Under the pieces are notes generated by a model. The model ran no database searches and had not been told where the DNA came from. It worked only from the letters and a program-made list of their open reading frames with translations. Below are positions 3,511 to 59,265 of a stretch of DNA of 64,000 nucleotides, one piece after another. The translations under genes were made by a program, and so were the position numbers. How positions within the stretch are numbered: the stretch's first letter is position 1; each line of letters starts with the position of its first letter. The stretch lies in assembly GCA_000004985.1 (NCBI GenBank), contig GG738915.1; one strand, written 5' to 3'. Source of the stretch: Naegleria gruberi (lineage: Eukaryota).

Positions 3511-3880
3511 TAACCCAAACCCAAACCCAAACCCAAACCCAAACCCAAACCCAAACCCAAACCCAAACCCAAACCCAAACCCAAACCCAAACCCAAACCC
3601 AAACCCAAACCCAAACCCAAACCCAAACCCAAACCCAAACCCAACCCAAACCCAAACCCAAACCCAAACCCAAACCCAAACCCAAACCCAAACCCAAACC
3701 CAAACCCAAACCCAAACCCAAACCCAAACCCAAACCCAAACCCAAACCCAAACCCAAACCCAAACCCAAACCCAAACCCAAACCCAAACCCAAACCCAAA
3801 CCCAAACCCAAACCCAAACCCAAACCCAAACCCAAACCCAAACCCAAACCCAAACCCAAACCCAAACCCAAACCCAAACC
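3511..3880. repeat. Second (CCCAAA)n array, about 61 units, same orientation as the first
   Basis: Direct reading. It is followed by copy B of the subtelomeric unit, so this is either an interstitial telomere block or a tandem telomere-subtelomere unit. Confidence 0.9.
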
Positions 3881-4309
3881 CAATTCTAAAAATAGAATTC
3901 TTCTAAACCCAATGTTCAAACCCTAGCCCAAAATTATAAACTTATTCAAATATCATTAAATTTTATATCATTCGATAGCTAATGATGAGTAGAACAACGT
4001 GTTATATTTAGTTTTTCAATTTATAAAATATTAACTTTGTAAATAATGTCAGATTAAAATTTGTAAAATGAAACTATAGGAAGAATGTTAATTTCAAAAT
4101 CCTTTAATGAGATTATATAGTCTATATCATCATAAACAATATTCATAATCACTTTCATATCAAATTATAAAAGTTCATGTCTGTAGATATAAAAGTATAG
4201 AGTGAAAAGGGAAGATGTGAGGTAAAAGAGGTCAACAATAACTTTTGAGTTTCTCATCAAAACATATTGAATCCTGACATGAAAATGTTCCATTTGGTGA
4301 GTATACATC
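3881..4309. repeat. Subtelomeric unit, copy B (truncated by a 50-N gap at 4310-4359)
   Basis: About 90% identical to 357-790. Confidence 0.75.
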
Positions 4310-4359
4310 NNNNNNNNNNNNNNNNNNNNNNNNNNNNNNNNNNNNNNNNNNNNNNNNNN
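4310..4359. other. Assembly gap (50 N) inside the subtelomeric EGF-repeat gene
   Basis: n run. Confidence 1.
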
Positions 4360-13200: not shown

Positions 13201-16200
13201 GATACTATCACCTGCCTTCAATTTGTAATCAGAATCAAGTTCAATTGAGAATTCAAAGGTTTCCTTGTTAGTCCAGTAACATTTTGGTTTGGTTCCAAGA
13301 AGATCAACACTCTTCAACAACTTGTTACAATCAAGAATCATACTATTGGTATATGTAGAAGAATAAGATGCAGGTGCAACAACCTTAAATTTCAAACCAG
13401 TCAAATCATCCATAAAAAGAACTGGTCCAATAATCTTGGTTGAACACAATTCACCATAAACTCCATCAGCACATGAGGAACAAGATTCACCCTTCCAGAA
13501 ACCCTTCTTGTTATCAGCAAAACAAGTACATTGTTCAAGATCATTACAATAACCATTTCCACTGCAAGTTGTTGTGGCATTACATTTAACCAAACTACTA
13601 CACATAGAACCAATGTATGGAGAAACACATACTGAACAAACTGAACCAGTCCAAAAACCCTTGACAGCTGTACTATCACAAACACAAGTATTAAAGTCTG
13701 TACATTTACCATGTCCAGAACAAACAGATGAAGCATTAGAAGAAATGCCACCACAAGTGAATTGAGCACAATCACTTCCAGAATATCCAGGTTGACAAGA
13801 ACAATGATCGAAAGAATCACATCTACCTTTTCCAGAACAAGCTGATGCAGTTGAGGAAATTCCAAAACAATTAAATTGGCTACAATCATTACCAAAATAT
13901 CCAGCTGAACAGGAGCAATTATTTGGAGAATTACAAGTACCATTACCAGAACAAACAAAGGCATTGCTTGGGGCAATACCAAAACATTTGAAAGAACTGC
14001 AATCTGATCCACTGTATCCACTTGAGCAGGAACAGTTATTTGGGGAGATACAACTACCGTGATTTGTACATACTGATGCACTAGTTGAGGCAGTTCCATA
14101 ACAATCAAATTTTCGACAATCATTTCCGTAGTATCCACTTGAACAGGAGCAGTTATTTGGTGAGATGCAACTACCATGTCTAGAACAAACTGAACCACTT
14201 GTTGAGACAGTTCCATAACAATCATATTGAGTACACTCGTTCCCATAATATCCAACTAAACACGAACAGTTATTTGGTGAGAGACAACTACCATGTCTAG
14301 AACAAACTGAACCACTTGTTGAGGAAGTTCCATAACAATCATATTGAGTACACTCATTTCCATAATAGCCTGATAAGCATGAGCAATTATTTGGGGAGAT
14401 ACAACTTCCGTGATTAGAACATGATGATGTATTTGTGGAGGCAGTTCCATAACAATCAAATTGGCTACAATCACTTCCATAGTATCCAGAGACACATGAA
14501 CAATTATTTGGTGACAAGCAACTACCATGTCCTGAACATGCTGAACTTGTTGATACATTTCCATAACAATCAAATTGACTACAATCATTTCCGTAATAGC
14601 CTGATGAACATGAACAATTATTTGAGGCAACACAACTACCGTGTCCAGAACAAACTGAACCACTCGTGAATATAGTTCCATAACAATCAAATTGGCTACA
14701 ATCATTTCCATAATATCCAACTAAACATGAACAGTTATTTGGGGAGATACAACTCACCATATCTAGAACAAACTGAACCACTTGTTGAGGAAGTTCCATA
14801 ACAATCATATTGAGTACACTCATTTCCATAATAGCCTGATAAGCATGAGCAATTATTTGGGGAGATACAACTTCNNNNNNNNNNNNNNNNNNNNNNNNNN
14901 NNNNNNNNNNNNNNNNNNNNNNNNNNNNNNNNNNNNNNNNNNNNNNNNNNNNNNNNNNNNNNNNNNNNNNNNNNNNNNNTGCCATAACATTGGAAAGAGC
15001 TGCAATCTGATCCACTATATCCAGCTAAGCATGAGCAGTTATTTGGTGAGAGACAGGCACCGTGTCCAGAACATACTGAACCATTTGTTGAGGCAATTCC
15101 AAAACAATCAAATTGACTACAATCATTTCCATAGTGGTCATTAGAGCATGAGCAATTATTTGGTGAGATACAACTTCCTTGACCAGAACAAGCTGATGAA
15201 GAAGTAAATAAGGTACCAAAACATTCATATTGGCTACAGTCACCAAAGTAACCTGAAGCACATGAACAATTATTTGGGGCAATGCAACTACCACGACCAG
15301 AACAAACTGATGAACTTATACCTGGGGCAATTCCATAACATTTGAATAAACTACAATCTTCACCACTGTATCCAGATGAGCAGGAACAACTGTTTGGAGC
15401 AACACAACTTCCATGTCCTGAGCAAACTTTGCGGTCAGTATTCAAATAATCACCACATGTAAAAAGTTGACAGTTTGAACCAGAGTAAGTGGTAGATTCG
15501 CAGTCACAAGTATCAGTTTTTGTACATGTTCCGTGACCTGAGCATACAGTAGAGTTGTCACCTGAAATTCCATTACATGTTGGATATTGACAAGTATTAG
15601 GAGCAACACATGTGGCATATGTTGGACATGCTTCTGGATGTGTGGCCACGATACCATTACACTTTGGAGTTTTACATTCACTACCTCCCCACAAAACACC
15701 ATAATTTGTCAAATCATTTACAGAAGGAAAACCGGTAATTGACTCGGCATTTAACGTAAAGCAATGATCTTAGAAAATTGTTTGTGAACAAAGTTAAAGC
15801 TTAATTACTTACCAGTGGAGGAATAAACAACCAAATGGCCATCGACTTGAAGAACAAATTTAAAAGGTCCAGTATGGGTACCACAATCATTTTTTGGATC
15901 AAGAGTGGTAATCAAAGAAGCACCATCCATAATCTTTAGAGAACCATCATCTTGGCTGAGCACAAGCTTGTAGCCACCATTTTTTGCAGGACCCACTGAT
16001 CTTTGAAAGTTTTTCATGAAAACACCCTCATAAAATTGAGAAAGACTTCCATCATTGTTCAATGTAAGTGCAATTTTTCCATCAGCAGATGTTAATGTGT
16101 TCGTTGCGAGGAGAATTGGCGACTCAGCAGTAAGGGCTGTAGAAGGGGAAATATCAACACAAAGACAATTATCATTTCCGAAGCAAATATTACCGCCACA

Positions 16201-30495: not shown

Positions 30496-33400
30496 ATGCT
30501 GAAATTCACCAATGCTTCTCGGCTATTGAATTTGCTGATGAATAATCAACAACAGCAGCAGATACATAATCATCAACAACAACAGAATCAGCTGCTGATC
30601 AGCAGTGCTGGAGGTGTTGATATGGGGACGGGTTCGGGTGGCAAGGAGGTGATGATCAGTTTGAGTGGTGTTTCTGGAGAAAGCAGTAGTATTATTATTG
30701 GGAACAGTGAATCATCTACAACACCAACAACAACAGCAGGTTTACCATCATCAACCTCTACAACATCAACAGTGGATCAGATGGATAAGGATCAACAACA
30801 AGAATTCCCACAAGAAGATGAAAGTTTGAAATCAACAAGCAATAATAATAATTTAATTAATTCTTCAACATCATCCAATACAACAATAGAAGGAAAATTG
30901 AATGGAATTTCTTCGGAGATTAATCAAAGCCTTTTATCTGATGATTTAATGAATAGTATAACATCAACGAGTACTAGTACTGATGAAATTGTAATTGATA
31001 AACCTTCTTCGGAACTAACAGAAAGTAATGCTACTACTAATACTCCCACTAATACAAGACCTAAATCGAGGAGGAAGCGAATTTCAACCTATGTCGTTGG
31101 ACAGGAAAGATCAAATTTGTTTCTTGTAGTTCGTGATGATCTAATTTTGGTAAGTGTCTTTATTCTGATCATTATCAACCTTCTTTCTCATCATGAATTA
31201 TATTATTATTATTATATTATTAAATAATGGATGTATTATTAATTGTGGATCAATTTTTGATAATGATGATAATAACAACAAATAGAACAAAACTTGTATT
31301 GAATTAGTGGAATTTCCGATTGTCAAGTCGAGTAAACAGGGAATGAATGAAATCACCAATGCTGATAGGAAAGTATTATACATTCATCACTCCAAAATGA
31401 AATGTTTATATGCATCAATTAATCCTCAACGAAACTTGCTGGCTTTTACTCACTTTTACAAGGCAAGCAACAACCAGCTGTACTATGAAATCTTTATTGT
31501 GGAAATTAATTCCTTATTCAATAAGGAGTGGAATGCTGAAAATGTTGTTAAATTTCAAGAACAACAAAATAGATTCATCTTCCGACCTCCACAAACATCT
31601 ATGCACGTTTTTCAATGTATTCAGTTCATTCATCCACCACAAGTTGATTTGAATTCTGACAATAGTATTACCGAGTCGAAAAATACCCTTCCAGTTGATA
31701 ATAAGAATTGCAGGTTCTTGTTTGTCACTGAGAAGGAATCCATCAAAATGTTTAACATTGTTTTTAGTGAGTCATCGAGCAGTATATTTAGTAGTTTATT
31801 TAAAAAGAATCAATCTTCCAAGATTGTGGAAAGCATTGGAGAATTGGTAATTTTTGCAAAGAATTTCATTTGGTGGCAATATGATCCAGTGAGGAGTTTA
31901 TTGTACTATATGACAATTTTGAAGGATTCTTCATCGACCAATGAAAATTCAGAACCTGAACTCTTAAAAACAATGTGTAATTTACGATGTGCCTCTATTT
32001 CAGAGAAGAAACCTAACCAAATTTTAGAATGTACAATACCAGTGACGTTTCAACGATCCATTTTAGAAAGATCAATATACACTCACGAAAAGATTAGATT
32101 ACCTTGGAGAACTGGTCCATCTAGTTTTGATTCTAATACAACTTTTCAAATAGTTCGATTGGAAAATGTTAGTATTTAATTTATTTAATATTTATTATAT
32201 ATTATTTTTTATTAATTATAGAACTGCCTATGTCTGTGTCAACAACAGGCGAAATATTCGAGTAATATTCCTGATAACTTTATTGATGTTGCCATTTTCA
32301 TTCTTCATCACAAGAAAAAGATGCACTTTTCAATTCCTCTACCAGCTGATGGGAAATCTTCAACGAGTCATCCAAGAGTATTCTTTGGTTCGTGCAGAGA
32401 TACTGTCATTGTGTACATTCCTGGGTGGTATTTGCAAATTGTGGACTGTTCCAAAGATCATGAACCTTGGCCTCTGATGAATTTCATAGGTTCAGATACT
32501 GTACCCTTCCTGGACAATGAATCAACAAGTGTCATTGATAGAAAATCTGAACAGGATGTTGTTTCACTCTTTTCTGGATCTAGCTCTGGTGGATATATTC
32601 TCGATTTGAATAGAGGACTACTTTTCAAGTATGATTTCAATTTTGATAACATGTTAAATTGGCTGGTTAACTTGAAAAAAGAACAGAGTTCAATGTACAA
32701 TCCTACCAATATGTATTCAGCTCCGAACATTAGGAAAACCACTATTCAATTTTTACATTTGGCCATCACTCATTTCAAGAATAATATATTTACAGAGAGA
32801 ACAATACGAGCCTTTTGTGAACCTTTTCCTGTTAATGGTTGTGACAGTCGTTGTAAACATACTACACTGGTCGACGACGAAGTACTCTTTATGGAATATT
32901 TAATTGGAGCAGGATATATGGAGTTGGCTTCAAATATTTCAGCTTCCACCTCATACACTGCCTCCATACTAACCAATTCATCTTCATCCAGTATTGCTGA
33001 TAAGGAATTTTTGAGATATATCCCAATTTCACTATTGGAATGTGGAGAAAATAGCCAATATCTTGATGATTACTCATACGATCAGTCATTTGTAACCACT
33101 AAAATTGGAAATACTATGGGAAACAATATTTTCACAAAAACAGTATGTAGCACTTCAAATATTTGAATTTAAATATTATTTAATATTATTTTGAAATATA
33201 CAGTTCGATTCCATTGTAAGAACCATTCCATATCCAAGAGAAAATACCGAATGCTCACTCGATTTAATCAAACAAGTCAAGTCACAACTAGCCAGTTCAC
33301 CAAAGTTTATTCCACTCGCTGTTTATTTGGCCCACCACAAGAATCACATTCTCACTCCACCAAGTCCCTCCGTAGAAAGACAAAGTAACAATATAAATGG

Positions 33401-34622
33401 AAAATATTTTGAGGAGAAGAATACCTACTTTCAAAAGAAGTGGTTCAACAGTATATTTAGCTCTCCAAAAAGTTCAGAAAAAGAGGATGACTCTTACTAT
33501 GAAGACACACCAGAAGACTCGGAATTAGATGCCGAAAAACTTAGAGTAAGACAAACGAAAAAGATTGATTTCTACTCTGAAAAATCCAAAACAGATTTTA
33601 TAGATGTTTTAAGTAACTTTCTACTTGTAAATAGTCAACTAATACCAATTGATTTGCAAGAATATACATCAGCAGGACCAACCAAAGCTACCAGAATGAA
33701 AACCATTTTAGATTACACTAGTTCCCTATTCCAACTTTCACAATATTTATTTACTACCCTCACTCAAATCCTCCATACCTTCCATCAAAAACAACGACAT
33801 TTCAATCAGGGAAAATGTACAGAAGTGTATCCAATGTGGTATTTCCATCTCTTGCAAAAATTACACGTTAGTTTGGAGGAAACAAACTTTCCTTCTCCAT
33901 CTGGATTTTTAGAACATTTTGCCACAGTTGGTGTCCATGTTCTTCCTCTCAATAATCTCATTCAATACATCAATAGGGAGATGTTCATTGTGACTGATAA
34001 TGTTATTCATGAAGTTATGAAAAAGTCACAACAACAAACAAGTGAAAAGGAAAAGAAAGCTTGGTGTTCACTAATGAGATCACTCATTCAAAAGCTCAAA
34101 GACAGAGAAAATAGAGACGTATTCCACTATGAAAGAATGCTCTCCTGCATGTTAAATCAACCAAGCTCTGAAAATACCGTACAAAATATTCTAATTAATT
34201 ATTATCACAGTTTATTAGTTGAACAAATTGACACTGTCAAGATACCCAATCCCAAGAATAGTAATGTCACTCCACTTGATTGTATTCAATTCTTAGAAGA
34301 ATTTAAATTACAGAGAGAAGAAAATCCATCAGAATCTCTATTCACATCCTTCCTTCCACTCTCCTATTATTTACTCTCCATAAAATCCCTCAATGGAACT
34401 CTCCTACCAAAACCAACTCTCCTCCGCATGTCACACATGAATAGTTTTGATTCCAGTGATAGTGATGATAACACAACCAATGAAATTTCATCTCCAAGAA
34501 TGAATACCAATTTTTACTCTCTTGTACAGGGAATAGAGTATTGCTTTGAAGGAGATCAAGATGCCTACATTTACTTTTTGAAGAAAAAGACAGAAAAGGT
34601 ATTGAATACCACCTTTTTTTAG
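30496..34622 (+). CDS. Large uncharacterised protein (about 1300 aa) encoded by four exons: 30496..31149, 31286..32167, 32222..33142, 33204..34622. The N-terminal third is poly-Q/S/T low-complexity.
   Basis: Three canonical introns, each joining a track ORF in phase 0: GTAAGT...AATAG, GTTAGT...TTATAG and GTATGT...ATACAG. No recognisable catalytic motif. Confidence 0.5.
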
Positions 34623-34783: not shown

Positions 34784-37069
34784 CTAATTAATGGTATTAC
34801 TTTGAATTGTGTAAGCAATTTTCCAATTTTTAAATTCTCTCGTTGAGGCAAGTCTTAGAAAAGTATCTGATAAATTAGCATAGATTGGGGGATGAATAAT
34901 CTCAACCAATTGTCGAACTTTGGTTTTCTTATTGGAATTATTCGAAATGTTGTCATTTAAGGATTTTTCACATTCGTTCAGTAATTCGTAGAAATTTCTC
35001 CTCACAGTTGATTGAATATTAACTTCGAAAATCGATTGACTTCTCATATATTTACATTCCAAATCTCTCAAATCGTCAATTTCTAAAGATTTATCAATTC
35101 CCTTTTTTGAAATTATTTTTTGTAAATCCATATTTAGCAAGTAGTTTTCAATAGACATTTCTTTAGAAGCATATTCTTTTAGAAGAATTTGAAATTCTGA
35201 ATTTTTCAAATAATTTTCCAATTGATCAAACTGACTAGAATTTGTTTGAATATTAGAATCATTTCCATATTTGGCATTTCTAATAAATTGAATAAACTCG
35301 GAAACTAAAACAGTTCCACCACAAATAAACATGAAACAGACAAACACCAAAAACCTAAAAAATCGACTCATTTCTATAAAAAATTCACTCGTTCCAGATC
35401 CATAAAATATAATTACTAAAATGGTATTCACAATTAAAAATACCAAAAGTAGCAAATCAATTCTAACAAGAAAAGGATCATCAAATAGGAGAAATCTTCT
35501 CAATCCCTTTTCCTTAATAATTTTCCTATTCACAATCATATCAAATACAATAGCTCCAAATCCCAACAAACAACCCAACACACAATACAAGACAATTGTT
35601 GCATTTCCCACAAGTAGATAGGTAAATTCAGCATCGTACAAATCAGTAAAGAAGAATGTCACTCCATGTATCGAAAATATCAAAGCAATCACAAGAGGAA
35701 TTGCCATTGTAAATAACAATCCATATTTCCATTCAGAGAATTTTCTCATTCTATGAATTACCTTATCACTATTCATTCCTTCAGCTTTTGTAATCAAAGT
35801 GTACAAATTTCTCAAATAGTAATAACGTACAACTGTCAAGCTATAGTTCATGACAATGAAACAGACCACAATCATTGAGAAATATCTCAGAAAATAGTAA
35901 CATGCATTATTCATAAAGGTGGAGAAACAAATTTCCAATGGAACGATGAATATTGGAAGGTAGGGAGTGAGTAATCTTCTGGTGAGTGATCGTTTTCTGA
36001 ATGCTTGACTGGCAAATAAGCAGAGAAAGTAACCTATTTCTATGATGGAACATGGAATGAGCCAATAATCTCCATTCGCGAAGGCAAAATCAACACATTG
36101 AGTCGTGACACATTTATGACATGTGGAAGGTAGAAAATTATTCAATAATTCCAGTAGAGTTTCGTTTGAGTTGTTACTATGTGTTGGTATTGAAATATTG
36201 TAAACTTTCAATGTATTCTTTACAATTTCGTCTAAAATCCAATATTGTGGTTTTTGTAAAGTAATTCCACTCACAAAATTAATGAAATTCAAATCAGAAT
36301 TTGACAAATTTCCAAACAGTTTCAATCTGGCCATCACGTTATTCATATCTTTATCTATATATGATGAACAATGTATTGTAAACTCATTGGAATTCGTGGA
36401 ATTGATAGTGGAATAATTATTGAGTGTGAAAAATCCATTCAATTGGTTCAAATTTTGCAAATCACTTAATTGGGTTAATTCTGATTGGGAAATGACGTTC
36501 AAAATTGATGGAACTAGAGGAAGAGGAATAAAATCAGATGGATTAATCAGAACGAAACTATCCGAATCTCTGTATAACCTCAAATAATCATAGAAATATT
36601 GTAATGTAGAAAATAAAACATCGTATTGCAAGAGAACGTTTTTAGGATTTCGACACGCATCTCCTGAAAATGTAAAATAATGAACTTTCAGATTTAAATT
36701 ATGAAACGAAACGAAACTCTGAAACTCTGAATAAAGTCTTTTTTCTACACCAATAGTAAGACGAGAGGATTCTTCCTTCAAAAATTCCACCATTGATTCG
36801 GTAGATTTCACCAGTGAATCGTCCAATTGATTAGTTTGGAATATTTTCCTCCAGACGAAAGCTGTCAAATAATCATTTACACTCACAATTGACTGCGACC
36901 GATCCACATAATAAATAGATTGTTGGGTTAGTGAAATATGTTTAGTAGTATCGAGAATAATTGTTTCCGATAACACGAATTTTGTTATTAAAATTAAAGT
37001 AAACGAAAGCAGAAGAAATAAATGATGAGAATTTCGTATACTTGATGTTGGTGAGTTCGTGACGTGCAT
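34784..37069 (-). CDS. 7TM receptor fused to a C-terminal RGS domain (761 aa): signal peptide, an extracellular domain of about 330 aa, seven predicted TM helices, then an RGS box
   Basis: The RGS box (FQILLKEYASKEMSIENYLLNMDLQKI ... ECKYMRSQSIFEVNIQSTVRRNFYELL ... IYANLSDTFLRLASTREFKNWK) aligns by eye with the RGS4 core (FKAFLKSEYSEENIDFW ... IYNEFIS..A..EVN.D ... IF.LM..DSY.RFLKS). Hydrophobic helices are clear between about residues 340 and 590. Confidence 0.7.
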   Translation of the reverse strand: MHVTNSPTSSIRNSHHLFLLLSFTLILITKFVLSETIILDTTKHISLTQQSIYYVDRSQSIVSVNDYLTAFVWRKIFQTNQLDDSLVKSTESMVEFLKEESSRLTIGVEKRLYSEFQSFVSFHNLNLKVHYFTFSGDACRNPKNVLLQYDVLFSTLQYFYDYLRLYRDSDSFVLINPSDFIPLPLVPSILNVISQSELTQLSDLQNLNQLNGFFTLNNYSTINSTNSNEFTIHCSSYIDKDMNNVMARLKLFGNLSNSDLNFINFVSGITLQKPQYWILDEIVKNTLKVYNISIPTHSNNSNETLLELLNNFLPSTCHKCVTTQCVDFAFANGDYWLIPCSIIEIGYFLCLFASQAFRKRSLTRRLLTPYLPIFIVPLEICFSTFMNNACYYFLRYFSMIVVCFIVMNYSLTVVRYYYLRNLYTLITKAEGMNSDKVIHRMRKFSEWKYGLLFTMAIPLVIALIFSIHGVTFFFTDLYDAEFTYLLVGNATIVLYCVLGCLLGFGAIVFDMIVNRKIIKEKGLRRFLLFDDPFLVRIDLLLLVFLIVNTILVIIFYGSGTSEFFIEMSRFFRFLVFVCFMFICGGTVLVSEFIQFIRNAKYGNDSNIQTNSSQFDQLENYLKNSEFQILLKEYASKEMSIENYLLNMDLQKIISKKGIDKSLEIDDLRDLECKYMRSQSIFEVNIQSTVRRNFYELLNECEKSLNDNISNNSNKKTKVRQLVEIIHPPIYANLSDTFLRLASTREFKNWKIAYTIQSNTIN

Positions 37070-37497
37070 TTTTTTCTGTTGTGAAGTTTGTTATCCAAAT
37101 GTCAGAAATTTAGACAGTTAAGGGCCTTAAAGATTTCCAAATTTTGACAATTACCATTTTTGAAGTTTGTTTTGAAAAAAGAAAAAAACAACAGCAAGAA
37201 AATATATTGAATGCACCAATGTGTGAATATTGAAATAATTTATCATTGGAAAGATGTGAACGGTTTCGAATAAACTTTACAATAATTTTTTTCTATTTTT
37301 TCATTAATTTCTTCAGAAAAATTCAATAGTGTGGTGTTGAAATATTGCAATTGTAAAGAGACCAATGCTATTAATAATAATTTACTTGAATTGTTTAAAA
37401 TCTATTTGAAAATTGTTAAGATTTCGGTAAATGACCAAATATAGAAAATCCATAAAAGAAATTTTCCAAAAATTACAAAAATTTGAATAAAAAAAAT

Positions 37498-40400
37498 ATG
37501 AAAAAATCAAACCAATCCATAGAATTGAGTTTATTCCATCCAAACTCTCTTTCTCATGAGAATCGAGTCCAAATTTCTCATGCACTTCGAAATATTTCTC
37601 CAAATATAGTAATTGGACAAAATGAAGGTGAATTTGATTGTTACACAGATGAAATTCTTCTCTCATCTGAATTACCAGATGTGTTTAGTGTAGATTCCAT
37701 GTTTCTTCCTCATCTAATCGATAGAGGACTCATTCAGCCAATTCAAAAAGATTATTTGAATTCTCTTTGTAATCCTGACGAAATGTTTGAGTTTACAAAA
37801 CAATCCTGTCAATTTAATGGCGACTGGTATGGAATACCAATGTTTGTCCATGGATACATTGTCATGCAACGTGAATTTGATAAGGAAATCAAGTCACTTC
37901 AAGCACTTGCTGAAAAACATGGTTATGACTCAATTGTTTTTCCAGATATGGCAGCTTCTAGCTCCATGTTAATAGTCAGATCGTTTGCTTTGGATCAACA
38001 GGGTGCTACTAATTCCAATAGAATTCAAATCACTAGAGAAAACTTTCCACTTTCAAAGATGGACGAAATTTCACCTTCCTATTTGAAGAATTTCAGAACT
38101 GTGCAAAATGCGACCAAGATTGTGAGTGCACAAGAGTTGGTGGATACATGTAGGTTGGGAGAATGCATTCCACATGCTGCCTACGTTGGAAGATTGGAAA
38201 ATGTTTGTGGACTCAAGTCAAAATTCGAGCAGGGAAATTGGACTTTGACAGTTCTTCCTTTTTTGGAAGGTAAGGCAATGACTACGACTGTTAGTGTGTT
38301 GGTATTCAATGCTAATTTGAAAGGAGAGAGATTGAAACAAGCAATGGAATATCTGAAAGGTTTTTTCACTTTGGAAAAAGTGGACGAAATGTTGGAACAT
38401 GGTTTAATGATACCTTGCGATAAATCCAGATTGAGAAGATGGTCTGAAAAGAGTACCATCTATAGAGATGTTCTCTACTCTCTAGAAAATGTAGAAAAAA
38501 AGATTATTAACATTTCATTACATCCAGATTTGGACAATCGAGAAATTGTCAAAATGTCAAATATTCTCAAACCTCATTTACAACACATTGCTGTAGGTAC
38601 ACTTCGTTGCTTAACTGCAGACATGGTAGAGAAAGCCAAAAGTGGACATCCTGGCATGCCAATCGGAATGTCAACCATCGCTTTCGTATTATGGAAATAT
38701 TTCTACAGAGCTTCAGGTAAAGATCCAACATGGATCAATCGAGATCGATTCATACTCAGTAATGGACATGGTTGTGCACTTCAATATGCATTACTTCATT
38801 TAACAGGATATGAATCCATGCCCATGGAACAGTTACAGAAATTAAGAACTTTGGATTCGAATACTCCTGGTCATCCCGAATGGTTCCATACAGATGGAGT
38901 GGATGCTACGACAGGTCCACTTGGACAGGGTATGTGCAATTCTATTGGAATGGCAGTCGCTGAATGTCACTTGTCCAAGAGATTTAACAGAAATGAGTTG
39001 AAATTATTTGATCATTACACGTATGTCTTTTGTGGAGATGGTGATTTGATGGAAGGCATGTCCACAGAGGGTATGTCATTTGCAGGACATCAACAACTCA
39101 ACAAAGTCATTGTTTTTTATGATGACAATAGAATTACCATAGATGGAAGTACGGATCTAACATTCACTCAGGACACAGCCATGGTTGCAAGAGGATTGGG
39201 TTGGCATGTCATTGAAGTTCATGATGCCGACTCTAACTTGCTAAGAATCAAGGAAGCAATCGAAACAGCTCGTCTTGTAACCAACAAACCATCCATGATT
39301 ATATGCAAGACAACCATTGGTTATGGAACTAAACAGGAAGGAACTGCCAAAGCTCATGGAACAGCATTGGGTGAGGATTCTGTTAGAATGTTGAAGAAAT
39401 TCTGTGGATTTAATCCAGACGATCATTTTATTATTCCTTCCATTGTGAGGGAAGAATTTGAAAAGATTTCTGATAGAAATGCCAAATATTTGCAAGAATG
39501 GAATGATATGACACAAAAATATGCAAATTCACACAAATCTGAATGGGAAATGTTGATGAGAATGAGAAGGGGTGAAATAGAGGACTCTCTCGAGAAGTTT
39601 CTTCCAAAATTTGAAGATGAAAAGTCAATGGCCACTAGAATGTGTTCACACGAAGTGTTAAATGGAATATTCAAGATTATTCCAGCAATGGTTGGAGGAT
39701 CAGCTGATTTAACACCATCCAATTTGACAGATATTGAAGGACAGAAGGATTTTCAACCTCATTCCAGAGAGGGAAGATATTTCAGGTTTGGAGTTAGAGA
39801 ACATGGAATGTGCTCCATTTCGAATGGAATTCTCTATCATGGACTGTTGAGAACCTATGTAGGGACTTTCCTTAATTTTGCTTCGTATGGATTGGGAGCT
39901 ATTCGTTTGAGTGCACTAGCTCAATTGCCAAATATTTTTGTGTTGACACATGACAGTATTGGCTTGGGAGAAGATGGACCAACTCATCAACCTATTGAAG
40001 TATTAACAGCTCTGAGAGCTATTCCTAACATGAATGTGATTAGACCAGCAGATGGTAGAGAAACAAGTGGTGCCTATCTATCAGCCATCAAAACTCTCAA
40101 AACTCCAACATGTCTAGCTCTGTCAAGACAAAACGTTCCACCAATCAAGAATTCCAGTATCGAAAAGACACTCAAAGGAGCCTATATCTTGGAGCAAGAT
40201 GAAAACCCTGATGTTATTTTAGTGGCCACAGGCTCAGAAGTTCAACTCATTGTTGAAGCCAAGAAACAATTGAACGAAAGACAAATTAATGTAAGAACTA
40301 TCAGTATGCCAAGTTGGGAACTCTTTGATGCACAGCCACTGGAATATAGACAGGAAATATTCACAGCTGGCATTCCATGTCTGTCAGTTGAAGCTGCTTC

Positions 40401-40602
40401 TATCATTGGATGGAGTAAATACAGTCATCACCAAATTGGAATGCTTAATTTTGGAGCTAGTGGAAAGTATACAGATGTCTATGAAAAGAATCAGATTACA
40501 ACAAGAAATGTTGTTGAATCTTCTATCAAGTTAATCGATAGATATAAGAAATCAGCTCCAAGTTTAATTCTTGCTCCATTGAAGGAAGAAAAAGCGTTAT
40601 AA
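37498..40602 (+). CDS. Transketolase (residues from about 365 onward) with a contiguous in-frame N-terminal extension of about 350 aa. The extension weakly resembles bacterial periplasmic solute-binding proteins (LPDVFSVDSMFLPHLIDRGLIQPI ... NGDWYGIPMFVHGYIVMQRE).
   Basis: Transketolase motifs: SGHPGMPIGMSTIAFVLW, RDRFILSNGHGCALQYALLHLTGY, TPGHPE, TTGPLGQG, the thiamine-pyrophosphate-binding GDGDLMEG, and the C-terminal domain. The whole 1039-codon ORF is uninterrupted. The ATG is preceded by an A9 tract. Confidence 0.85.
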   Translation: MKKSNQSIELSLFHPNSLSHENRVQISHALRNISPNIVIGQNEGEFDCYTDEILLSSELPDVFSVDSMFLPHLIDRGLIQPIQKDYLNSLCNPDEMFEFTKQSCQFNGDWYGIPMFVHGYIVMQREFDKEIKSLQALAEKHGYDSIVFPDMAASSSMLIVRSFALDQQGATNSNRIQITRENFPLSKMDEISPSYLKNFRTVQNATKIVSAQELVDTCRLGECIPHAAYVGRLENVCGLKSKFEQGNWTLTVLPFLEGKAMTTTVSVLVFNANLKGERLKQAMEYLKGFFTLEKVDEMLEHGLMIPCDKSRLRRWSEKSTIYRDVLYSLENVEKKIINISLHPDLDNREIVKMSNILKPHLQHIAVGTLRCLTADMVEKAKSGHPGMPIGMSTIAFVLWKYFYRASGKDPTWINRDRFILSNGHGCALQYALLHLTGYESMPMEQLQKLRTLDSNTPGHPEWFHTDGVDATTGPLGQGMCNSIGMAVAECHLSKRFNRNELKLFDHYTYVFCGDGDLMEGMSTEGMSFAGHQQLNKVIVFYDDNRITIDGSTDLTFTQDTAMVARGLGWHVIEVHDADSNLLRIKEAIETARLVTNKPSMIICKTTIGYGTKQEGTAKAHGTALGEDSVRMLKKFCGFNPDDHFIIPSIVREEFEKISDRNAKYLQEWNDMTQKYANSHKSEWEMLMRMRRGEIEDSLEKFLPKFEDEKSMATRMCSHEVLNGIFKIIPAMVGGSADLTPSNLTDIEGQKDFQPHSREGRYFRFGVREHGMCSISNGILYHGLLRTYVGTFLNFASYGLGAIRLSALAQLPNIFVLTHDSIGLGEDGPTHQPIEVLTALRAIPNMNVIRPADGRETSGAYLSAIKTLKTPTCLALSRQNVPPIKNSSIEKTLKGAYILEQDENPDVILVATGSEVQLIVEAKKQLNERQINVRTISMPSWELFDAQPLEYRQEIFTAGIPCLSVEAASIIGWSKYSHHQIGMLNFGASGKYTDVYEKNQITTRNVVESSIKLIDRYKKSAPSLILAPLKEEKAL

Positions 40603-44744: not shown

Positions 44745-46665
44745 ATGAATAATAATAATAGAAGGCCAACTACATTCAATCCTTGTGTTGCCAATACAAA
44801 TATCAGACGTGCCAATGATGAAAATACTCTCCTGCAACAACAACAATACAACTCGTACAATTCAAAGTATGAACCATTCCAATCGAGAGAAATCCTCAGA
44901 GATGTTACCAATTCAGCCTCTTCGAATCAGAGAAATGTCATGATGCAACAAGGTGTCTGTTCTCAACAACAGCAACCACTCAAACCAAACACTATTGGTC
45001 AAAACAATTACTATAATTCTCAAAACAATATACCTAAAAAACCATCGAGTGCTAATCTTCCACAACAAACTCAACCATACAAGAATGTTGTGCAACAAAC
45101 AAATAGCAATACTACAACAATATATAACTATGGACAACGACCATTGAATGCTCCAAACACTTATCAATACTCCCAACAACAACAGCAACCAATTACTCTC
45201 CAACAACACCATCCCCAATATAATAATTCCTCCTCAAATAGTCGAGGATTTTTACCACAACATTCTTCCNNNNNNNNNNNNNNNNNNNNNNNNNNNNNNN
45301 NNNNNNNNNNNNNNNNNNNGAGATGAGGATGAAGAAATGGCTTACTTTGAAGATGAAGAAGAATTGACAGAAAATAACACAATTCCAATCGTGCCTTCGA
45401 TTGGTGTTGGTTATTCAGTTACTTCAGCTGCTGTTGCTTCTGGTTACATGTCCGCAACATCTGTATTTGCTAATCCAAGCAGTACCAGCTCTGTTTCTCA
45501 AAGCTCTTCCTATTTTTCACAACAACAACAACATTCTTCCAGTAATAATAATTTTGTTGCAGAAGATCCAGCCAATACATCCTATGAAAGTGATGAAGAA
45601 CCACAAAAAGAACCAACCAATTTACTTCCATCCATGCAACCATTGTACTACTTTAGAGAACATCACACCGGCTCTGGTACAATTAATGCATCAACTTGCA
45701 ATATTTTAGTGCCTCCACCAACTAATCCTGAAGATGCTCGTTGTATGAGATCTGTCATCTTTGCTACTGATGTTGAAGCTGAAGTTTTGGAAAGCATGCG
45801 CTTAACTCAAATGAAAAACAAACCAAATCCAAGATATATGGAAACTGTACAAACTGATATTACCAGTAACATGAGATGTATCCTCGTTGATTGGATGAAT
45901 GAGGTTGCTTCCATGTACACTCTTTCACCAGAAACATTATATTTGGCTGTTAATATTCTGGATAGATCCCTCTCCAAGATGTCTGTCAGAAGAAACAAGT
46001 TGCAAGCATTTGGTGTCGCTTCTCTCTTCATCTCTTCAAAGTTTAACGAGATTACTCCTCCAGAGTTAAATGAATTCATCTATATTGCAGATGACACTTA
46101 TGGAAAGGAAGAAGTTCTCATTATTGAGAGAATAATTTTGAACAACCTCGAGTTTGAACTTGTTACTGTTCAACCTTATGATTTTATTGAAAAGTTTTTG
46201 CAAATTTGTGGTGTTGTCGACAATCCTATTGTCAAATACTTGACTTATTACATTTGTGAAATGCAATTACAGAATATTGAAGTTCTTAACTTTCCACCTT
46301 CTGTTATTGCAGCTTCTGCATTGATGATTTCCTTGTATTTGATTGACTTTAATTATTGGAACTCTGAGTTGGCTTGTTGTTTTGGTTTTTCCAATCAAGC
46401 TTGTCAAGGTAACTCATCACTCACTCCAGAAGACGAACAATTGGTTGGTATTGTCAATGAATGTCTTTCCTCCATGTTTAGATTCTATGTTGGTATGGCC
46501 ACAGGCAGGATTAATTTCTCTGCCGTGAGATCCAAGTACTGTCACATGGTTTTCCAAGGAGTTGGTGAATGCACAAGAAAGGTTGATAAGGAACCACCAT
46601 TCATTCCTTCAGTCAGCAAGGGTAGCAATCCAAGTACCTCAACCACACCAAATTACCATCCTTAA
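44745..46665 (+). CDS. Cyclin A/B-type (paralogue 1). The Q/N-rich N-terminus is interrupted by a 50-N gap (45270-45319).
   Basis: Cyclin box MRCILVDWMNEVASMYTLSPETLYLAVNILDRSL...KLQAFGVASLFISSKFNEI plus a C-terminal cyclin fold. An acidic stretch DEDEEMAYFEDEEE precedes it. Confidence 0.8.
45270..45319. other. Assembly gap (50 N) inside the cyclin paralogue 1 N-terminal region
   Basis: n run. Confidence 1.
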
Positions 46666-50804: not shown

Positions 50805-52481
50805 CTAATTGGTCCATTGTAGCAAATCTTGAATGGAAAGTTCAATTAATTGCTCTGGTTGAGAAATGAATGGTGCAATTGCTGGATAGTACTTGGTAAT
50901 GGTTCTAAAATGTTCTCTATTTCTATTATGATTTTTCAAGCTTAATTGTTCGAAACTTTGCATGGAAACTAAACATCTCTTCATGCAATTGTTGAATTCT
51001 TCAATTTCAATGACCAATGAAGATTGTCCTTGTGTTTCATGATCTTCAACATTGTTTCTCTCAATTCTGGACATTTCTTCAAAGTAAATCTTGAGGAATT
51101 TTCTGATAATCGAAACTGATTTGAAATTCGAATGTGGAGCAAGCATTTGGAAAGCCAATACGAAACAGGATAGAGCAACAAGTGAAGGTCTAAACCACAA
51201 CATGTCATAATTGTGTAATTGAATTTCACATAGATAATTAGAAACCTTTTCCATAAAGTTTACAAAATTATCAGCTTCAACCAAAGATGGAAAAGCTTGT
51301 GTGAAATTTTGATCATTCTTCATGGCATGAATGAACAAGGCAACGTAATCAATCAATAGAATGGATCTCAACTCAAAATCCAAGGTATTCAACACCCAAC
51401 TTTCCATTCTCAGCACTTGTTTCTTCAAATCTTCAATAGACGAATCAGACGAAACTGGTGGTAAAATATCACTCAAGTTGACCGATCTACCATAATACTT
51501 GGTTGATATAAAAAAGCATGCACATCCCAATGCCTGCAAATTATCAACATCTATCAAATAATACTGTTCAATATTAAATCTGTCAAGTGAACGATCAAAA
51601 ATCATTGTTGCATGATAGAGAATTTCCTTTGGAATGTCAAGTTCTGTTTGGAGAATATTAAACCAATCGATAACTGTTCTTCTATATTGTGGTTTGACAT
51701 GTGGATGAGTGGAAAGATAATTAGCTTTTGCACAGTTGATAGTTTCACGTGAAATGTTATCTGAAAGTAATTGAAAACTATCTGAAACTTCAACAGCTTC
51801 TTCTTCGTCAGCTTCTTCTTCGTCATCTTCTTGCATGGAATCAACATCTTGATTAGCACATTCTTCTTGATTACTATTCGAATCATGGTCTTGACTCAAA
51901 ATAATTTCTTCAACACTATCTTCCATAGTTTCGTATTGTTGACTTTCTTTTTCTGGATGAATGGAAAATGAGGTAGCGCTCCAACTGCAGGTAATTTCAT
52001 CTTGGGCAAGTGTCGAAATTGGTTCGGCAGTTTCGGTTTCGTTTAAGGAAGGAGATATATACGAATGACCATTGACAAGCTCTTGCTTTACTTCTCGAGA
52101 TTGAAAAGGTGTTGGTTGGATTGTGTTGAGGGCGGTGGTGGAAACGTCTTCTTCACATTCCCAAGTAATTTCTTCTTGTTTTTCATTCACTTTATGGGCG
52201 AGAGCATGTATACGAATTGAATCGAAAGTGGACGAAACTCGAGTCTTCTTTGTAATCTTGCTCTGAAGAGTTTCTACTGAATCAGATTGTGATGAATAGC
52301 TTGTTGTTAGAGAATTTGTCTTTCTCTTTAAATTATTCGAAACTTTTTGGCGCCAACCTTTCATCACGACTTTCTTACCACCAGAACACATTCTCATAAA
52401 TGTACAAGGTGAAAGTCCACCTAATTGTTGTTGATTTCTTCTCGAATTCATTGTATTTAAAATAAAATTACAATTTTCCAT
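50805..52481 (-). CDS. Cyclin-like protein (paralogue 2, divergent), 558 aa, with an acidic DDEEEADEEEAVE stretch before the cyclin box
   Basis: RRTVIDWFNILQTELDIPKEILYHATMIFDRSLDRF...LQALGCACFFISTKYYG plus a second helical repeat. ATG at 52479-52481. Confidence 0.6.
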   Translation of the reverse strand: MENCNFILNTMNSRRNQQQLGGLSPCTFMRMCSGGKKVVMKGWRQKVSNNLKRKTNSLTTSYSSQSDSVETLQSKITKKTRVSSTFDSIRIHALAHKVNEKQEEITWECEEDVSTTALNTIQPTPFQSREVKQELVNGHSYISPSLNETETAEPISTLAQDEITCSWSATSFSIHPEKESQQYETMEDSVEEIILSQDHDSNSNQEECANQDVDSMQEDDEEEADEEEAVEVSDSFQLLSDNISRETINCAKANYLSTHPHVKPQYRRTVIDWFNILQTELDIPKEILYHATMIFDRSLDRFNIEQYYLIDVDNLQALGCACFFISTKYYGRSVNLSDILPPVSSDSSIEDLKKQVLRMESWVLNTLDFELRSILLIDYVALFIHAMKNDQNFTQAFPSLVEADNFVNFMEKVSNYLCEIQLHNYDMLWFRPSLVALSCFVLAFQMLAPHSNFKSVSIIRKFLKIYFEEMSRIERNNVEDHETQGQSSLVIEIEEFNNCMKRCLVSMQSFEQLSLKNHNRNREHFRTITKYYPAIAPFISQPEQLIELSIQDLLQWTN

Positions 52482-57594: not shown

Positions 57595-59265
57595 ATGTTC
57601 AACAATAATTCGAGTGTTTCCACAATGATGACCACAACCACAAGTAGTACTACCTCTACTACTACTACAAGAAAGCCTCCTGTTGGTAAACCAATTCTCT
57701 CCAATACTTCCCTTGCCTATACAAATGTTGAAGAATCTATTGATACGAGGACACCACCTTCTCTTGTATGTAACTCACCTTCTTCAGTGTTTCATCATCA
57801 TGGAGGAGCAAAGAGACAACCACACAGAGAAGCCTTGGCCAATATTACCAATTCTCATGAGGTTCAACATACCTCCTCTACAAATGATTTGAATAAGAGA
57901 GTAGCACAAGCCAATAATTATTCAAATCTGAAAGTGAATACTCATTCTAGTTCTACTTTCACTACATTATCCACTGCTAGTACTAATACTCAATGTTCTA
58001 AGAGTTTTTTGAATCCATACTCCTCTGCCAATGGTAAGACAAACGCAGCAGCAGTAGCAGTATCAGTACACTCAATGATTCATTCGAATAGTGCTAGCAA
58101 TAACACTCAACAATTTAACACTTCGAGCCAACACCATACCCAACAATATACAGAGGATCAACAAACATTCGAGCAACAAGTTGAATCCTCATCATCACCA
58201 CTCAGTTCTGAACAAGATCCAAATGCCTTTAATGAGTTCTCAATGGAGGCCTCTGATGAAAACTACTCTTCTGACGAAGAGATGGATGAATCAGAAGATG
58301 ATGGTGAACAACAAGCACCACCAATCGATCCAGATATCTTCAACTCTGTCGATAAGAACAGGCTTCAAGCTATTATGGATTTGAATATCAGAAATCCAGC
58401 TAACCTCCTTCCAAAAAGTTCTTTGAGAACTTTAACACAAACTCATCTTCCAATCGATGTGGAAGATGATATTCTTTCCTATTTATTCAACAATCAAAGT
58501 TACAAGCAAGTTTCTCCTCACGTTTGGCGAACAACTCAAAAGAATGTCAATGCCAAGATGCGTACCATGCTCGTCGAATGGATTGCAGGTGTTGCTGTAA
58601 GTTTCAAACTCTTACCTGAAACACTCTACCTTTCCATTGACATTTTAGATAGATTCTTGTGTAAAGTTTGTGTTAGCAACGTTAAACTTTTACAAGGATA
58701 TGGTTTGGCTTGTCTTTTCATTGCTGCCAAGTATTGTGAAACTGCTCCACCTCCACTCAGACAATTCTTATTTGCTGCTGATAATACTTATACAAGAGGA
58801 TTGATTTTGAGTTTGGAGAGTGAGATTTGCAATGCTTTAGACTTTGAGTTGTGTTCCATTCAATCCTTTGACTTTGTTGAAAAGTTTTTGGAACTCATTG
58901 GACATGTTAACAATGCCAGAATCAAATGTTTGGCCTATTATATCTGCGAATTGCAACTCCAAAACTTTGATGCCCTACAATACAACAAGAGTGGTATTGC
59001 CCTCTCTTCAGTAATTATTGCCTTGTATGTGACTGGTACTGCCTGTACATTGGAGGGCCTCGTTGCATGCTTGGGTGGTAATACTGATCTTGCCAATATC
59101 ACTTATATCAATAATTGTGTCATGGCTGTATACTGTTATTACGTTCAAATGTCAATGGGTGAAATCCAACACAATTTCATTAAGGACAAGTATGCCAGAC
59201 AATCATTTGGTGGTGTGTCCACCATTGGCTTTACCAGTCGAATTTCTCCAAGTATCAGCTTTTAA
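57595..59265 (+). CDS. Cyclin B/A-type (paralogue 3) with an N-terminal destruction box
   Basis: D-box REALANITN (RxxLxx[IV]xN) at nt 57826-57852. Acidic stretch SDEEMDESEDDGEQQ. Cyclin box MRTMLVEWIAGVAVSFKLLPETLYLSIDILDRFL...LQGYGLACLFIAAKYCE, clearly paralogous to 44745..46665. ATG at 57595. Confidence 0.8.
   Translation: MFNNNSSVSTMMTTTTSSTTSTTTTRKPPVGKPILSNTSLAYTNVEESIDTRTPPSLVCNSPSSVFHHHGGAKRQPHREALANITNSHEVQHTSSTNDLNKRVAQANNYSNLKVNTHSSSTFTTLSTASTNTQCSKSFLNPYSSANGKTNAAAVAVSVHSMIHSNSASNNTQQFNTSSQHHTQQYTEDQQTFEQQVESSSSPLSSEQDPNAFNEFSMEASDENYSSDEEMDESEDDGEQQAPPIDPDIFNSVDKNRLQAIMDLNIRNPANLLPKSSLRTLTQTHLPIDVEDDILSYLFNNQSYKQVSPHVWRTTQKNVNAKMRTMLVEWIAGVAVSFKLLPETLYLSIDILDRFLCKVCVSNVKLLQGYGLACLFIAAKYCETAPPPLRQFLFAADNTYTRGLILSLESEICNALDFELCSIQSFDFVEKFLELIGHVNNARIKCLAYYICELQLQNFDALQYNKSGIALSSVIIALYVTGTACTLEGLVACLGGNTDLANITYINNCVMAVYCYYVQMSMGEIQHNFIKDKYARQSFGGVSTIGFTSRISPSISF

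What the first reader, a model, noticed from the sequence alone, without database searches (positions are those of the whole stretch)
34784..37069. 7TM receptor with a C-terminal RGS box (GPCR-GAP fusion)
One ORF encodes a signal peptide, a Cys-containing ectodomain of about 330 aa, seven hydrophobic helices and a recognisable RGS core. 7TM-RGS fusions (the plant AtRGS1 type) are a known but phylogenetically patchy, non-canonical mode of G-protein regulation. Its presence and ectodomain here are worth characterising.
Basis: partly seen in the sequence, partly recalled or inferred. Interest (0 to 1): 0.5.

Follow-up and report, generated by a model that had tools for sequence, protein, structure and literature searches.

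The report
Naegleria seven-helix receptor with RGS domain
This Naegleria gruberi gene encodes a surface receptor with a small-molecule-binding-type outer domain, seven membrane helices and a built-in G-protein "off switch" (RGS domain); it is an unannotated member of a receptor-GAP family already described and partly tested in the related amoeba Naegleria fowleri.

Summary
Window 34784..37069 (-) is one uninterrupted 761-aa ORF, identical to an NCBI "predicted protein" of Naegleria gruberi. It has an N-terminal signal-like segment, an ectodomain of about 300 aa with six conserved cysteines, seven hydrophobic helices with a clear positive-inside pattern, and a C-terminal RGS domain.

The RGS call is not detectable by Pfam on this protein alone. 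It is secure through the family and the model:
- 40 of 60 aligned relatives hit PF00615.
- The RGS4 G-alpha contact residues (E83, S85, E87, N88, N128, D163, S164, R167) are matched, with S164 replaced by Thr, and are 90% or more conserved in the family.

The interpretation (7TM-RGS receptor-GAP, AtRGS1-like in principle) is supported. It is not new as a kind: N. fowleri has 28 such proteins, and RGS domains from three of them have measured GAP activity (Bosch et al. 2022).

The parts
34784..37069 (-). Complete single-exon CDS (761 codons plus stop) of the 7TM-RGS protein
   Evidence: ORF list. 100% identical over 761 aa to the NCBI N. gruberi predicted protein P0001. Coordinates checked by translation.
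36968..37069 (-). Residues 1-34: signal-peptide-like N-terminus (h-region LFLLLSFTLILIT, possible cleavage after VLS)
   Evidence: Hydropathy peak at 16-34 and model helix 13-33. 38 of 57 relatives that start with Met have a similar N-terminal hydrophobic stretch. Cleavage is inferred; no signal-peptide predictor was available.
36122..36967 (-). Residues 35-316: ectodomain with a type II periplasmic-binding-protein-like (bilobed alpha/beta) fold. It carries the conserved motif N176-P-S-D179-F180...P187 and Cys139/Cys234
36077..36121 (-). Residues 317-331: Cys-rich stalk C-x2-C-x4-C just before TM1
   Evidence: C317, C320 and C325 are each conserved in 39-41 of 60 relatives, as is C390 at the outer end of TM3. 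The disulfide pairing is inferred.
35270..36076 (-). Residues 332-600: seven-transmembrane domain with a GPCR fold
35456..35542 (-). Residues 510-538: third cytoplasmic loop, the most conserved stretch of the family (D-x3-NRK-x-I-x2-KG-x3-FLFFDDPF-x2-R-x-D)
   Evidence: Mean majority-residue frequency is 0.58, against 0.12-0.22 for the outer loops and the ectodomain. G522, D531, P532 and R536 are at least 90% conserved. Its function is inferred.
34787..35242 (-). Residues 610-761: RGS domain, joined to TM7 by only about 9 residues
35144..35155 (-). S639-I-E641-N642, equivalent to RGS4 S85-E-E87-N88 (G-alpha switch contact loop)
   Evidence: Alignment to the 1AGR_E sequence. E641 is invariant; S639 and N642 are at least 90% conserved in 60 relatives.
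35018..35026 (-). E682-V-N684, equivalent to RGS4 E126-V-N128 (the key Asn)
   Evidence: The same register is found by hmmsearch against RGS10 and by hhalign against RGS4.
34853..34867 (-). D735-T736-F-L-R739, equivalent to RGS4 D163-S164-Y-R-R167
   Evidence: D735, T736 and R739 are at least 90% conserved.

Best explanation
The gene encodes a cell-surface receptor-GAP of the Naegleria 7TM-RGS family.

Shown here by sequence and model: an N-out/C-in seven-helix GPCR-fold membrane domain. On the outside it carries a PBP-type-II-like ectodomain and a Cys-rich stalk. On the cytoplasmic side, tethered directly to TM7, it carries an RGS domain with an intact G-alpha-binding surface.

Inferred from established RGS biochemistry and from the N. 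fowleri and Arabidopsis AtRGS1 precedents: the RGS domain binds the transition state of one or more of the many Naegleria G-alpha subunits and accelerates their GTP hydrolysis. Some of those subunits exchange nucleotide spontaneously ('self-activating'). The effect is to hold the pathway off at the membrane.

Inferred from the fold only: a small soluble ligand binds between the two ectodomain lobes, and the signal passes through the stalk and helix bundle to the highly conserved cytoplasmic loops. This would change the GAP's access to G-alpha, or the receptor's location, so that G-alpha-GTP accumulates or falls.

The variable ectodomain combined with a conserved cytoplasmic face across at least a dozen N. 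gruberi paralogues fits a family of chemosensors with different ligands and a common output.
For: - ORF and identity.
- Seven helices and topology.
- Interface residues matched to RGS4 and at least 90% conserved.
- Family size: 474 representatives at E<=1e-3, 230 at <=1e-10.
- Named members come from N. gruberi, N. fowleri, N. lovaniensis and Willaertia magna. Several are labelled 'RGS domain-containing protein' by UniProt.
- Ectodomain fold.
- Conserved extracellular Cys.
- Conservation gradient, cytoplasmic loops > RGS > TM helices > ectodomain and outer loops.
- Precedent: N. fowleri has 28 7TM-RGS proteins. The isolated RGS domains of three are GAPs for Nf G-alpha2/3/5/7. Binding is selective for the AlF4- state and is abolished by the switch-1 G-to-S mutation (PMC9283941).
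Against: - There is no experiment on this protein or on any member with this ectodomain. The N. fowleri proteins tested are much longer (1215-2459 aa) and have EGF/lectin/GPS ectodomains.
- This protein alone does not reach any Pfam threshold for RGS.
- The ligand, the G-alpha partner and the direction of regulation are unknown.
- Signal-peptide cleavage and surface location are inferred.
Confidence: 0.75

Rival explanations
1. Dual-function receptor. The 7TM domain is itself a working GPCR, acting as a nucleotide-exchange factor for a slow-exchanging G-alpha. The fused RGS domain then gives rapid built-in shut-off, so the protein is both GEF and GAP rather than a GAP only.
For: The most conserved part of the whole family is the cytoplasmic face of the helix bundle: ICL3 0.58, ICL1/ICL2 0.43, and the R-Y-Y-Y-L-R-N-L-Y motif at the inner end of TM3. 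That is where GPCRs engage G proteins. The bundle has a true GPCR fold. Naegleria has both slow-exchanging and self-activating G-alpha subunits, and both kinds interact with 7TM-RGS proteins (PMC9283941).
Against: No 7TM-RGS protein has been shown to have GEF activity. The conserved loops could equally dock the protein's own RGS domain, a kinase or an arrestin. There is no sequence similarity to any GPCR family.
Confidence: 0.15
2. The RGS domain is a scaffold or G-alpha-effector module rather than a catalytic GAP. It would bind active G-alpha to receive a signal, as in RGS-RhoGEF-type effectors, or bind something other than G-alpha.
For: Some RGS domains have lost GAP function and act as scaffolds (stated in PMC3971589). 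This protein's RGS is divergent, with no Pfam hit on its own. It has a 16-residue Asn-rich insertion and an extra C-terminal helix.
Against: Every RGS4 residue that contacts the G-alpha switch regions is kept, with S164 as Thr, and is at least 90% conserved across 60 relatives. This is the pattern expected for a canonical interface. In N. fowleri even the RGS-RhoGEF effector uses the canonical interface and has GAP activity.
Confidence: 0.1
3. The ectodomain is not a ligand-binding PBP-like module. It would be a lineage-specific structural or adhesive domain, and the protein senses contact or is regulated only from inside the cell.
For: The fold match is moderate and partial. No sequence family is matched. 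The domain-only model has long low-confidence stretches at 177-216 and 261-299 in domain numbering. Other family members carry quite different ectodomains, including alpha/beta hydrolase and EGF/lectin/GPS.
Confidence: 0.3

Closest known systems
Naegleria fowleri 7TM RGS proteins (28 genes; Nf 7TM RGS1-4 studied; Bosch, Jeck and Siderovski, J Biol Chem 2022, PMC9283941)
   Same: Same genus and the same architecture: extracellular N-terminus, seven helices, C-terminal RGS. The nearest N. fowleri relative (P0005, FDP41_008785, labelled 'RGS domain-containing protein') matches the family profile at E 1e-122 and is 35% identical. Much longer proteins (1300-2600 aa) share the same 7TM+RGS module. 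The canonical RGS/G-alpha interface residues are present.
   Different: The four proteins tested there are 1215-2459 aa with EGF, lectin and GPS ectodomains. This one is 761 aa with a PBP2-like ectodomain and a short Cys-rich stalk, and no GPS motif was seen. I did not establish whether P0005 is one of their 28. There is no biochemistry on this subfamily.
Arabidopsis AtRGS1 (plant 7TM-RGS)
   Same: N-terminal 7TM plus a C-terminal cytoplasmic RGS box. The proposed logic is also the same: a receptor-like GAP that restrains self-activating G-alpha (as described in PMC9283941 and PMC8584482).
   Different: From my own knowledge, AtRGS1 is about 459 aa and has no large ectodomain. Homology of the two 7TM domains was not tested here because no AtRGS1 sequence was available to the tools. 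Plants have one such gene; Naegleria has dozens.
Class C GPCRs (mGluR, TAS1R, GABA-B, CaSR) and GPR158/RGS7
Canonical R4-type RGS domains (RGS4, RGS10, RGS16, RGS3)
   Different: About 15-17% identity. There is a 16-residue insertion between the helices equivalent to alpha6 and alpha7, and an extra conserved C-terminal helix (T743-x-E745-F...W749). S164 is Thr and R166 is Leu.

Membership tests
7TM-RGS receptor-GAPs (architecture class: AtRGS1, Trichomonas, Naegleria) | Seven transmembrane helices N-terminal to the RGS box, N-out/C-in | tested here: met
7TM-RGS receptor-GAPs (architecture class: AtRGS1, Trichomonas, Naegleria) | C-terminal cytoplasmic RGS domain (PF00615 fold) | tested here: met
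7TM-RGS receptor-GAPs (architecture class: AtRGS1, Trichomonas, Naegleria) | Conserved G-alpha contact residues (RGS4 E87, N88, N128, D163, R167) | tested here: met
   E641, N642, N684, D735 and R739. They are invariant or at least 90% conserved in 60 relatives.
7TM-RGS receptor-GAPs (architecture class: AtRGS1, Trichomonas, Naegleria) | GAP activity on a cognate G-alpha, with binding selective for the GDP-AlF4- state | not testable with these tools
   This needs protein biochemistry. It has been shown for three N. fowleri family members only (PMC9283941).
Naegleria 7TM RGS family of Bosch et al. 2022 | Sequence homology of the 7TM+RGS module to N. fowleri family members | tested here: inconclusive
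   There is clear homology to an N. fowleri RGS-domain protein (P0005, E 1e-122) and to long proteins with the same 7TM+RGS module. The paper gives AmoebaDB accessions from another assembly, so a direct match to one of its 28 genes was not made.
AtRGS1 orthologue group | 7TM domain homologous to the plant RGS1 7TM, with a short N-terminus | not tested
   No AtRGS1 sequence or model was available (the afdb50 library was not installed). The 300-aa ectodomain is in any case a difference.
Class C GPCR | 7tm_3 transmembrane family and an ANF_receptor (type I PBP) Venus flytrap domain | tested here: not met
   No Pfam hit in this protein or in 60 relatives. No PDB sequence hit for the 7TM profile. 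The ectodomain resembles type II, not type I, PBPs. The structural similarity of the bundle does not distinguish class C from class A.
Type II periplasmic-binding-protein fold (ectodomain) | Two alpha/beta lobes joined by two crossover strands, with a ligand cleft between them | tested here: inconclusive

The most novel reading that the evidence does not exclude
A subfamily so far found only in Heterolobosea and in unnamed metagenome sequences pairs a type II PBP (Venus-flytrap-like) small-molecule sensor and a Cys-rich stalk with a GPCR-fold bundle and a cis-fused GAP. There are at least a dozen paralogues in N. gruberi, with others in N. fowleri, N. lovaniensis and Willaertia. This would be a 'class-C-like' chemoreceptor whose output is G-protein deactivation rather than activation. 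It arose either by convergence with, or from an ancient relationship to, animal class C receptors. Most N. gruberi members are labelled only 'predicted protein'. This one falls below the Pfam RGS threshold and so was probably missed in the published count of 229 RGS proteins.
Probability: 0.4. Interest if true: 0.55.

Novelty: new member of a known kind. Interest (0 to 1): 0.35.

Why it matters
7TM-RGS proteins are the proposed receptors of the "self-activating G-alpha plus receptor-GAP" mode of G-protein signalling. That mode is thought to be widespread outside animals and fungi, yet no ligand is firmly established for any protist member.

A compact 761-aa member may be a more tractable entry point for ligand discovery than the 1200-2400-aa adhesion-like proteins studied so far. 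Its ectodomain looks like a solute-binding protein, so ligands could be screened by thermal shift or co-crystallisation of the isolated ectodomain.

Naegleria fowleri, a relative, is a lethal pathogen, and its G-protein pathway has been proposed as a drug target. The finding also shows that Pfam-threshold censuses undercount RGS proteins in Naegleria. Otherwise this gene is an ordinary member of an already described family.

Tried and rejected
- Pfam on the protein alone, E<=1: nothing. On the isolated C-terminal 149 aa, E<=10: only noise.
- phmmer against the PDB: a single marginal RGS10 hit, E 0.97.
- hhalign of the three-sequence C-terminal alignment against RGS4: correct register but weak (E 0.023, probability 2%), because both profiles are very shallow.
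- The search for homologous proteins with the 60-sequence profile returned only 2 proteins. The 8000-candidate word filter was swamped, so it gave no taxonomic census.
No comparison with the AtRGS1 model was therefore possible.
- Sequence-profile searches of the ectodomain (A4) and of the 7TM region (A5) against the PDB, and of ectodomain members against Pfam, gave only noise.
- Anantharaman et al. 2011 (Gene 475:63, PMC3396428) surveyed RGS and 7TM architectures including Naegleria and may already mention such ectodomains. It is not held.
None was found.
- Neighbouring genes are unrelated (GSAP-like, transketolase fusion, dynamin, hydrolase, cyclins). As expected for a eukaryote, genomic context says nothing about function.
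- I considered that the first hydrophobic segment might be an eighth TM helix rather than a signal peptide. Either way the ectodomain faces out. This was not resolved.

Full report
**1. What is there**

Window 34784..37069 on the minus strand is one ATG-initiated ORF of 761 codons. Its product is 100% identical over its full length to a 761-aa "predicted protein" of Naegleria gruberi held by NCBI and UniRef. The window is therefore N. gruberi nuclear DNA, and the public gene model is the same single exon. The window's composition, about 30-38% G+C outside an assembly gap, fits.

**2. Topology**

A Kyte-Doolittle scan gives an N-terminal hydrophobic segment (16-34) and seven further segments. 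They lie at about 335-355, 366-384, 389-414, 449-467, 484-509, 537-555 and 571-589.

An AlphaFold2 model built on a 60-sequence family alignment is confident (mean pLDDT 86.6, pTM 0.83) and places helices at the same positions. TM7 runs on as a helix to residue 600.

The loops obey the positive-inside rule sharply. K+R is 5, 7 and 6 in the three loops predicted cytoplasmic, and 0, 0 and 0 in the three predicted outside. All six N-x-S/T sequons of the N-terminal domain are on the outside.

Six Cys positions on the outside (139, 234, 317, 320, 325 and 390) are conserved in the family, and 22 of 38 close relatives keep all six. No cytoplasmic or intramembrane Cys is comparably conserved (C500 and C583 are kept in only 20 and 18 of 60). 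This fits three extracellular disulfides; the pairing is inferred.

The ectodomain proper is about 297 aa.

**3. Is the C-terminus an RGS domain?**

On this protein alone the sequence signal is marginal. There is no Pfam family at E<=1 and a single PDB hit, RGS10, at E 0.97. The wider evidence is consistent and strong:

- (a) The two closest relatives found by the word-indexed search (one metagenomic, one N. gruberi paralogue) hit Pfam RGS PF00615 at E 1e-4 and 2e-4, with 23.1 and 22.2 bits against a cut-off of 23.9.
- (b) A profile of the three C-termini finds only RGS domains in the PDB: RGS10, RGS17 and the Entamoeba RGS-RhoGEF, at E 0.007-0.03.
- (c) An exhaustive profile search of 1.84 billion representatives finds 474 relatives at E<=1e-3, and 230 at <=1e-10.
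- (d) Of 60 of these aligned with the query, 40 hit PF00615 at E<=1e-3. The best reaches 44.6 bits over the whole Pfam model.

**4. The G-alpha interface**

I took the rat RGS4 sequence from PDB 1AGR chain E and aligned it with the family C-termini. From my own knowledge of the RGS4/Gi-alpha1 complex, the residues below contact the G-alpha switch regions. They map as follows:

| RGS4 | This protein |
|---|---|
| E83 | E637 |
| S85 | S639 |
| E87 | E641 |
| N88 | N642 |
| E126 | E682 |
| N128 | N684 |
| D163 | D735 |
| S164 | T736 |
| R167 | R739 |

The same register is found independently by hmmsearch against RGS10 and by hhalign against RGS4.

In the 60-member alignment E641 is invariant. E637, S639, N642, N684, D735, T736 and R739 are at least 90% conserved.

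Differences from R4-type RGS boxes are a 16-residue Asn-rich insertion and an extra conserved C-terminal helix.

**5. The membrane domain**

No Pfam 7TM family is matched by this protein or its relatives, and a profile of the 7TM region finds nothing in the PDB by sequence.

Within the family the cytoplasmic face is the most conserved part:

- ICL3 (D-x3-NRK-x-I-x2-KG-x3-FLFFDDPF-x2-R-x-D) has mean majority-residue frequency 0.58.
- ICL1, and ICL2 with its R-Y-Y-Y-L-R-N-L-Y motif at the inner end of TM3, are at 0.43.
- The TM helices are at about 0.3.
- The outer loops are at 0.12-0.19, and the ectodomain is at 0.22.

A variable outside with a constant inside is what a family of receptors with different ligands and one output looks like.

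**6. The ectodomain**

It has no sequence relatives outside the family.

A domain-only model is of medium quality (pLDDT 70.8), but the same region has pLDDT around 90 in the full-length model.

- ABC-transporter solute-binding proteins for phosphonate, betaine/choline, amino acids, molybdate and tricarboxylates
- LysR effector-binding domains
- ionotropic glutamate-receptor ligand-binding domains

Foldseek on the full model also picked up an arginine-binding protein and ATP-phosphoribosyltransferase, which from my own knowledge share this fold.

The secondary structure shows two long strands (59-73 and 180-194) flanking a middle alpha/beta lobe, as in PBP2 crossovers. The rest of the other lobe is mostly helical and partly disordered.

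I therefore rate "PBP2-like ligand-binding module" as likely but not proven, at about 0.6-0.7. A conserved N-P-S-D-F...P motif (D179 in 47/60 relatives, P187 in 49/60) sits at the start of the second crossover strand.

A C-x2-C-x4-C stalk links the domain to TM1. Relatives can carry other ectodomains, such as alpha/beta hydrolase.

**7. Who else has it**

Named relatives are all Heterolobosea:

- about a dozen N. gruberi paralogues, mostly labelled only "predicted protein"
- N. fowleri and N. lovaniensis proteins that UniProt labels "RGS domain-containing protein"
- Willaertia magna

The remainder are unnamed metagenome or run-assembly proteins. The nearest N. fowleri protein is only 35% identical. 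Proteins of 1300-2600 aa share the same 7TM+RGS module behind much larger N-termini.

**8. What is already known**

De Mendoza et al. 2014 counted 229 RGS proteins in N. gruberi by Pfam and noted 7TM-RGS architectures in many lineages (PMC3971589).

Bosch, Jeck and Siderovski 2022 (PMC9283941) reported the following:

- N. fowleri has 28 7TM-RGS proteins.
- The RGS domains of three of them accelerate GTP hydrolysis by Nf G-alpha2, 3, 5 and 7. [quoted passage not shown]
- Binding is selective for the AlF4- state and is lost with the switch-1 G-to-S mutation.
- The extracellular parts are EGF, lectin and GPS modules on proteins of 1215-2459 aa.

A full-text search for 7TM-RGS together with "periplasmic binding" found nothing. 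Anantharaman et al. 2011, which might cover this, is not held.

The kind is therefore known and partly characterised in the same genus. This gene is an unannotated member that falls just under the Pfam threshold, and its subfamily's ectodomain appears undescribed in what I could read.

**9. Mechanism**

Shown: the architecture, the topology, the GPCR and RGS folds, and an intact and conserved G-alpha interface.

Inferred from RGS biochemistry and from the N. fowleri and AtRGS1 precedents: the RGS domain is held at the membrane on a 9-residue tether after TM7. There it acts as a GAP on one or more Naegleria G-alpha subunits and restrains spontaneous signalling.

Inferred from fold only: a small solute closes the bilobed ectodomain. 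This is relayed through the stalk and bundle to the conserved cytoplasmic loops, altering the GAP's access to G-alpha or the receptor's trafficking.

Rivals are a dual GEF+GAP receptor, a non-catalytic RGS scaffold or effector, and a non-ligand-binding ectodomain. They are listed with their tests in the rival explanations.

**10. Context and verdict**

The window holds no G-alpha gene and no second family member, and the neighbours are unrelated.

It is a new member of a known kind, with one modestly new feature. Interest 0.35.

Noticed in passing
window 3-356 and 3512-3883: Two arrays of about 60 copies each of the hexamer CCCAAA (TTTGGG on the other strand), both in the same orientation, at the very start of the window. 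TTTGGG is the candidate telomere repeat proposed for N. gruberi by Fulneckova et al. 2013 (PMC3622300). The window probably starts at a chromosome end. The second, internal array on the other side of an assembly gap is unexplained; it could be a mis-join or a subtelomeric duplication.
   Followed up: partly
window about 949-3500: A long run of N (assembly gap). It explains the apparent 11-17% G+C and the extreme skew in the first 4 kb of the composition profile, and also the spurious 867-993-aa 'ORFs' listed there. I read only its start; the right-hand end is inferred from the repeat array that begins at 3512.
   Followed up: partly
window 37483-40602 (+): The neighbouring 1039-aa ORF is a complete transketolase (Transketolase_N, Transket_pyr and C-terminal domains). 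It is preceded by about 370 aa that include a Thiaminase_I-like N-terminal domain (PF22156, E 3e-12). From my own knowledge, thiaminase I has a thiamin-binding PBP-like fold. Fusing such a module to a thiamin-diphosphate enzyme is an unusual combination. I did not check whether the upstream part belongs to the same gene; the ORF as listed starts at TTG.
   Followed up: no
window 10276-15015 (-) and 4232-6139 (-): These are large ORFs rich in EGF/teneurin-type EGF repeats. The longer one also has a REJ domain and a PKD-like domain. These are the kinds of extracellular modules reported on the large N. fowleri 7TM-RGS proteins. However, no 7TM-RGS module of this family lies downstream of them in the window.
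   Followed up: partly
window 45148-46665 (+), 50805-52481 (-), 57595-59265 (+): Three separate cyclin genes (Cyclin_N plus Cyclin_C) lie within 14 kb.
   Followed up: no
window 33327-34622 (+): The ORF immediately downstream of the 7TM-RGS gene, convergent with it, carries a gamma-secretase-activating-protein C-terminal domain (GSAP-16, E 3e-27). I did not expect this family in a heterolobosean.
   Followed up: no
relatives P0100, P0101, P0139 (metagenome/JGI): Some members of the same 7TM+RGS family carry an alpha/beta-hydrolase (Abhydrolase_1 / TAP-like) domain in place of the PBP-like ectodomain, and one member matches NMT1/THI5-like. An extracellular hydrolase-fold sensor on a receptor-GAP would be worth a look.
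   Followed up: partly
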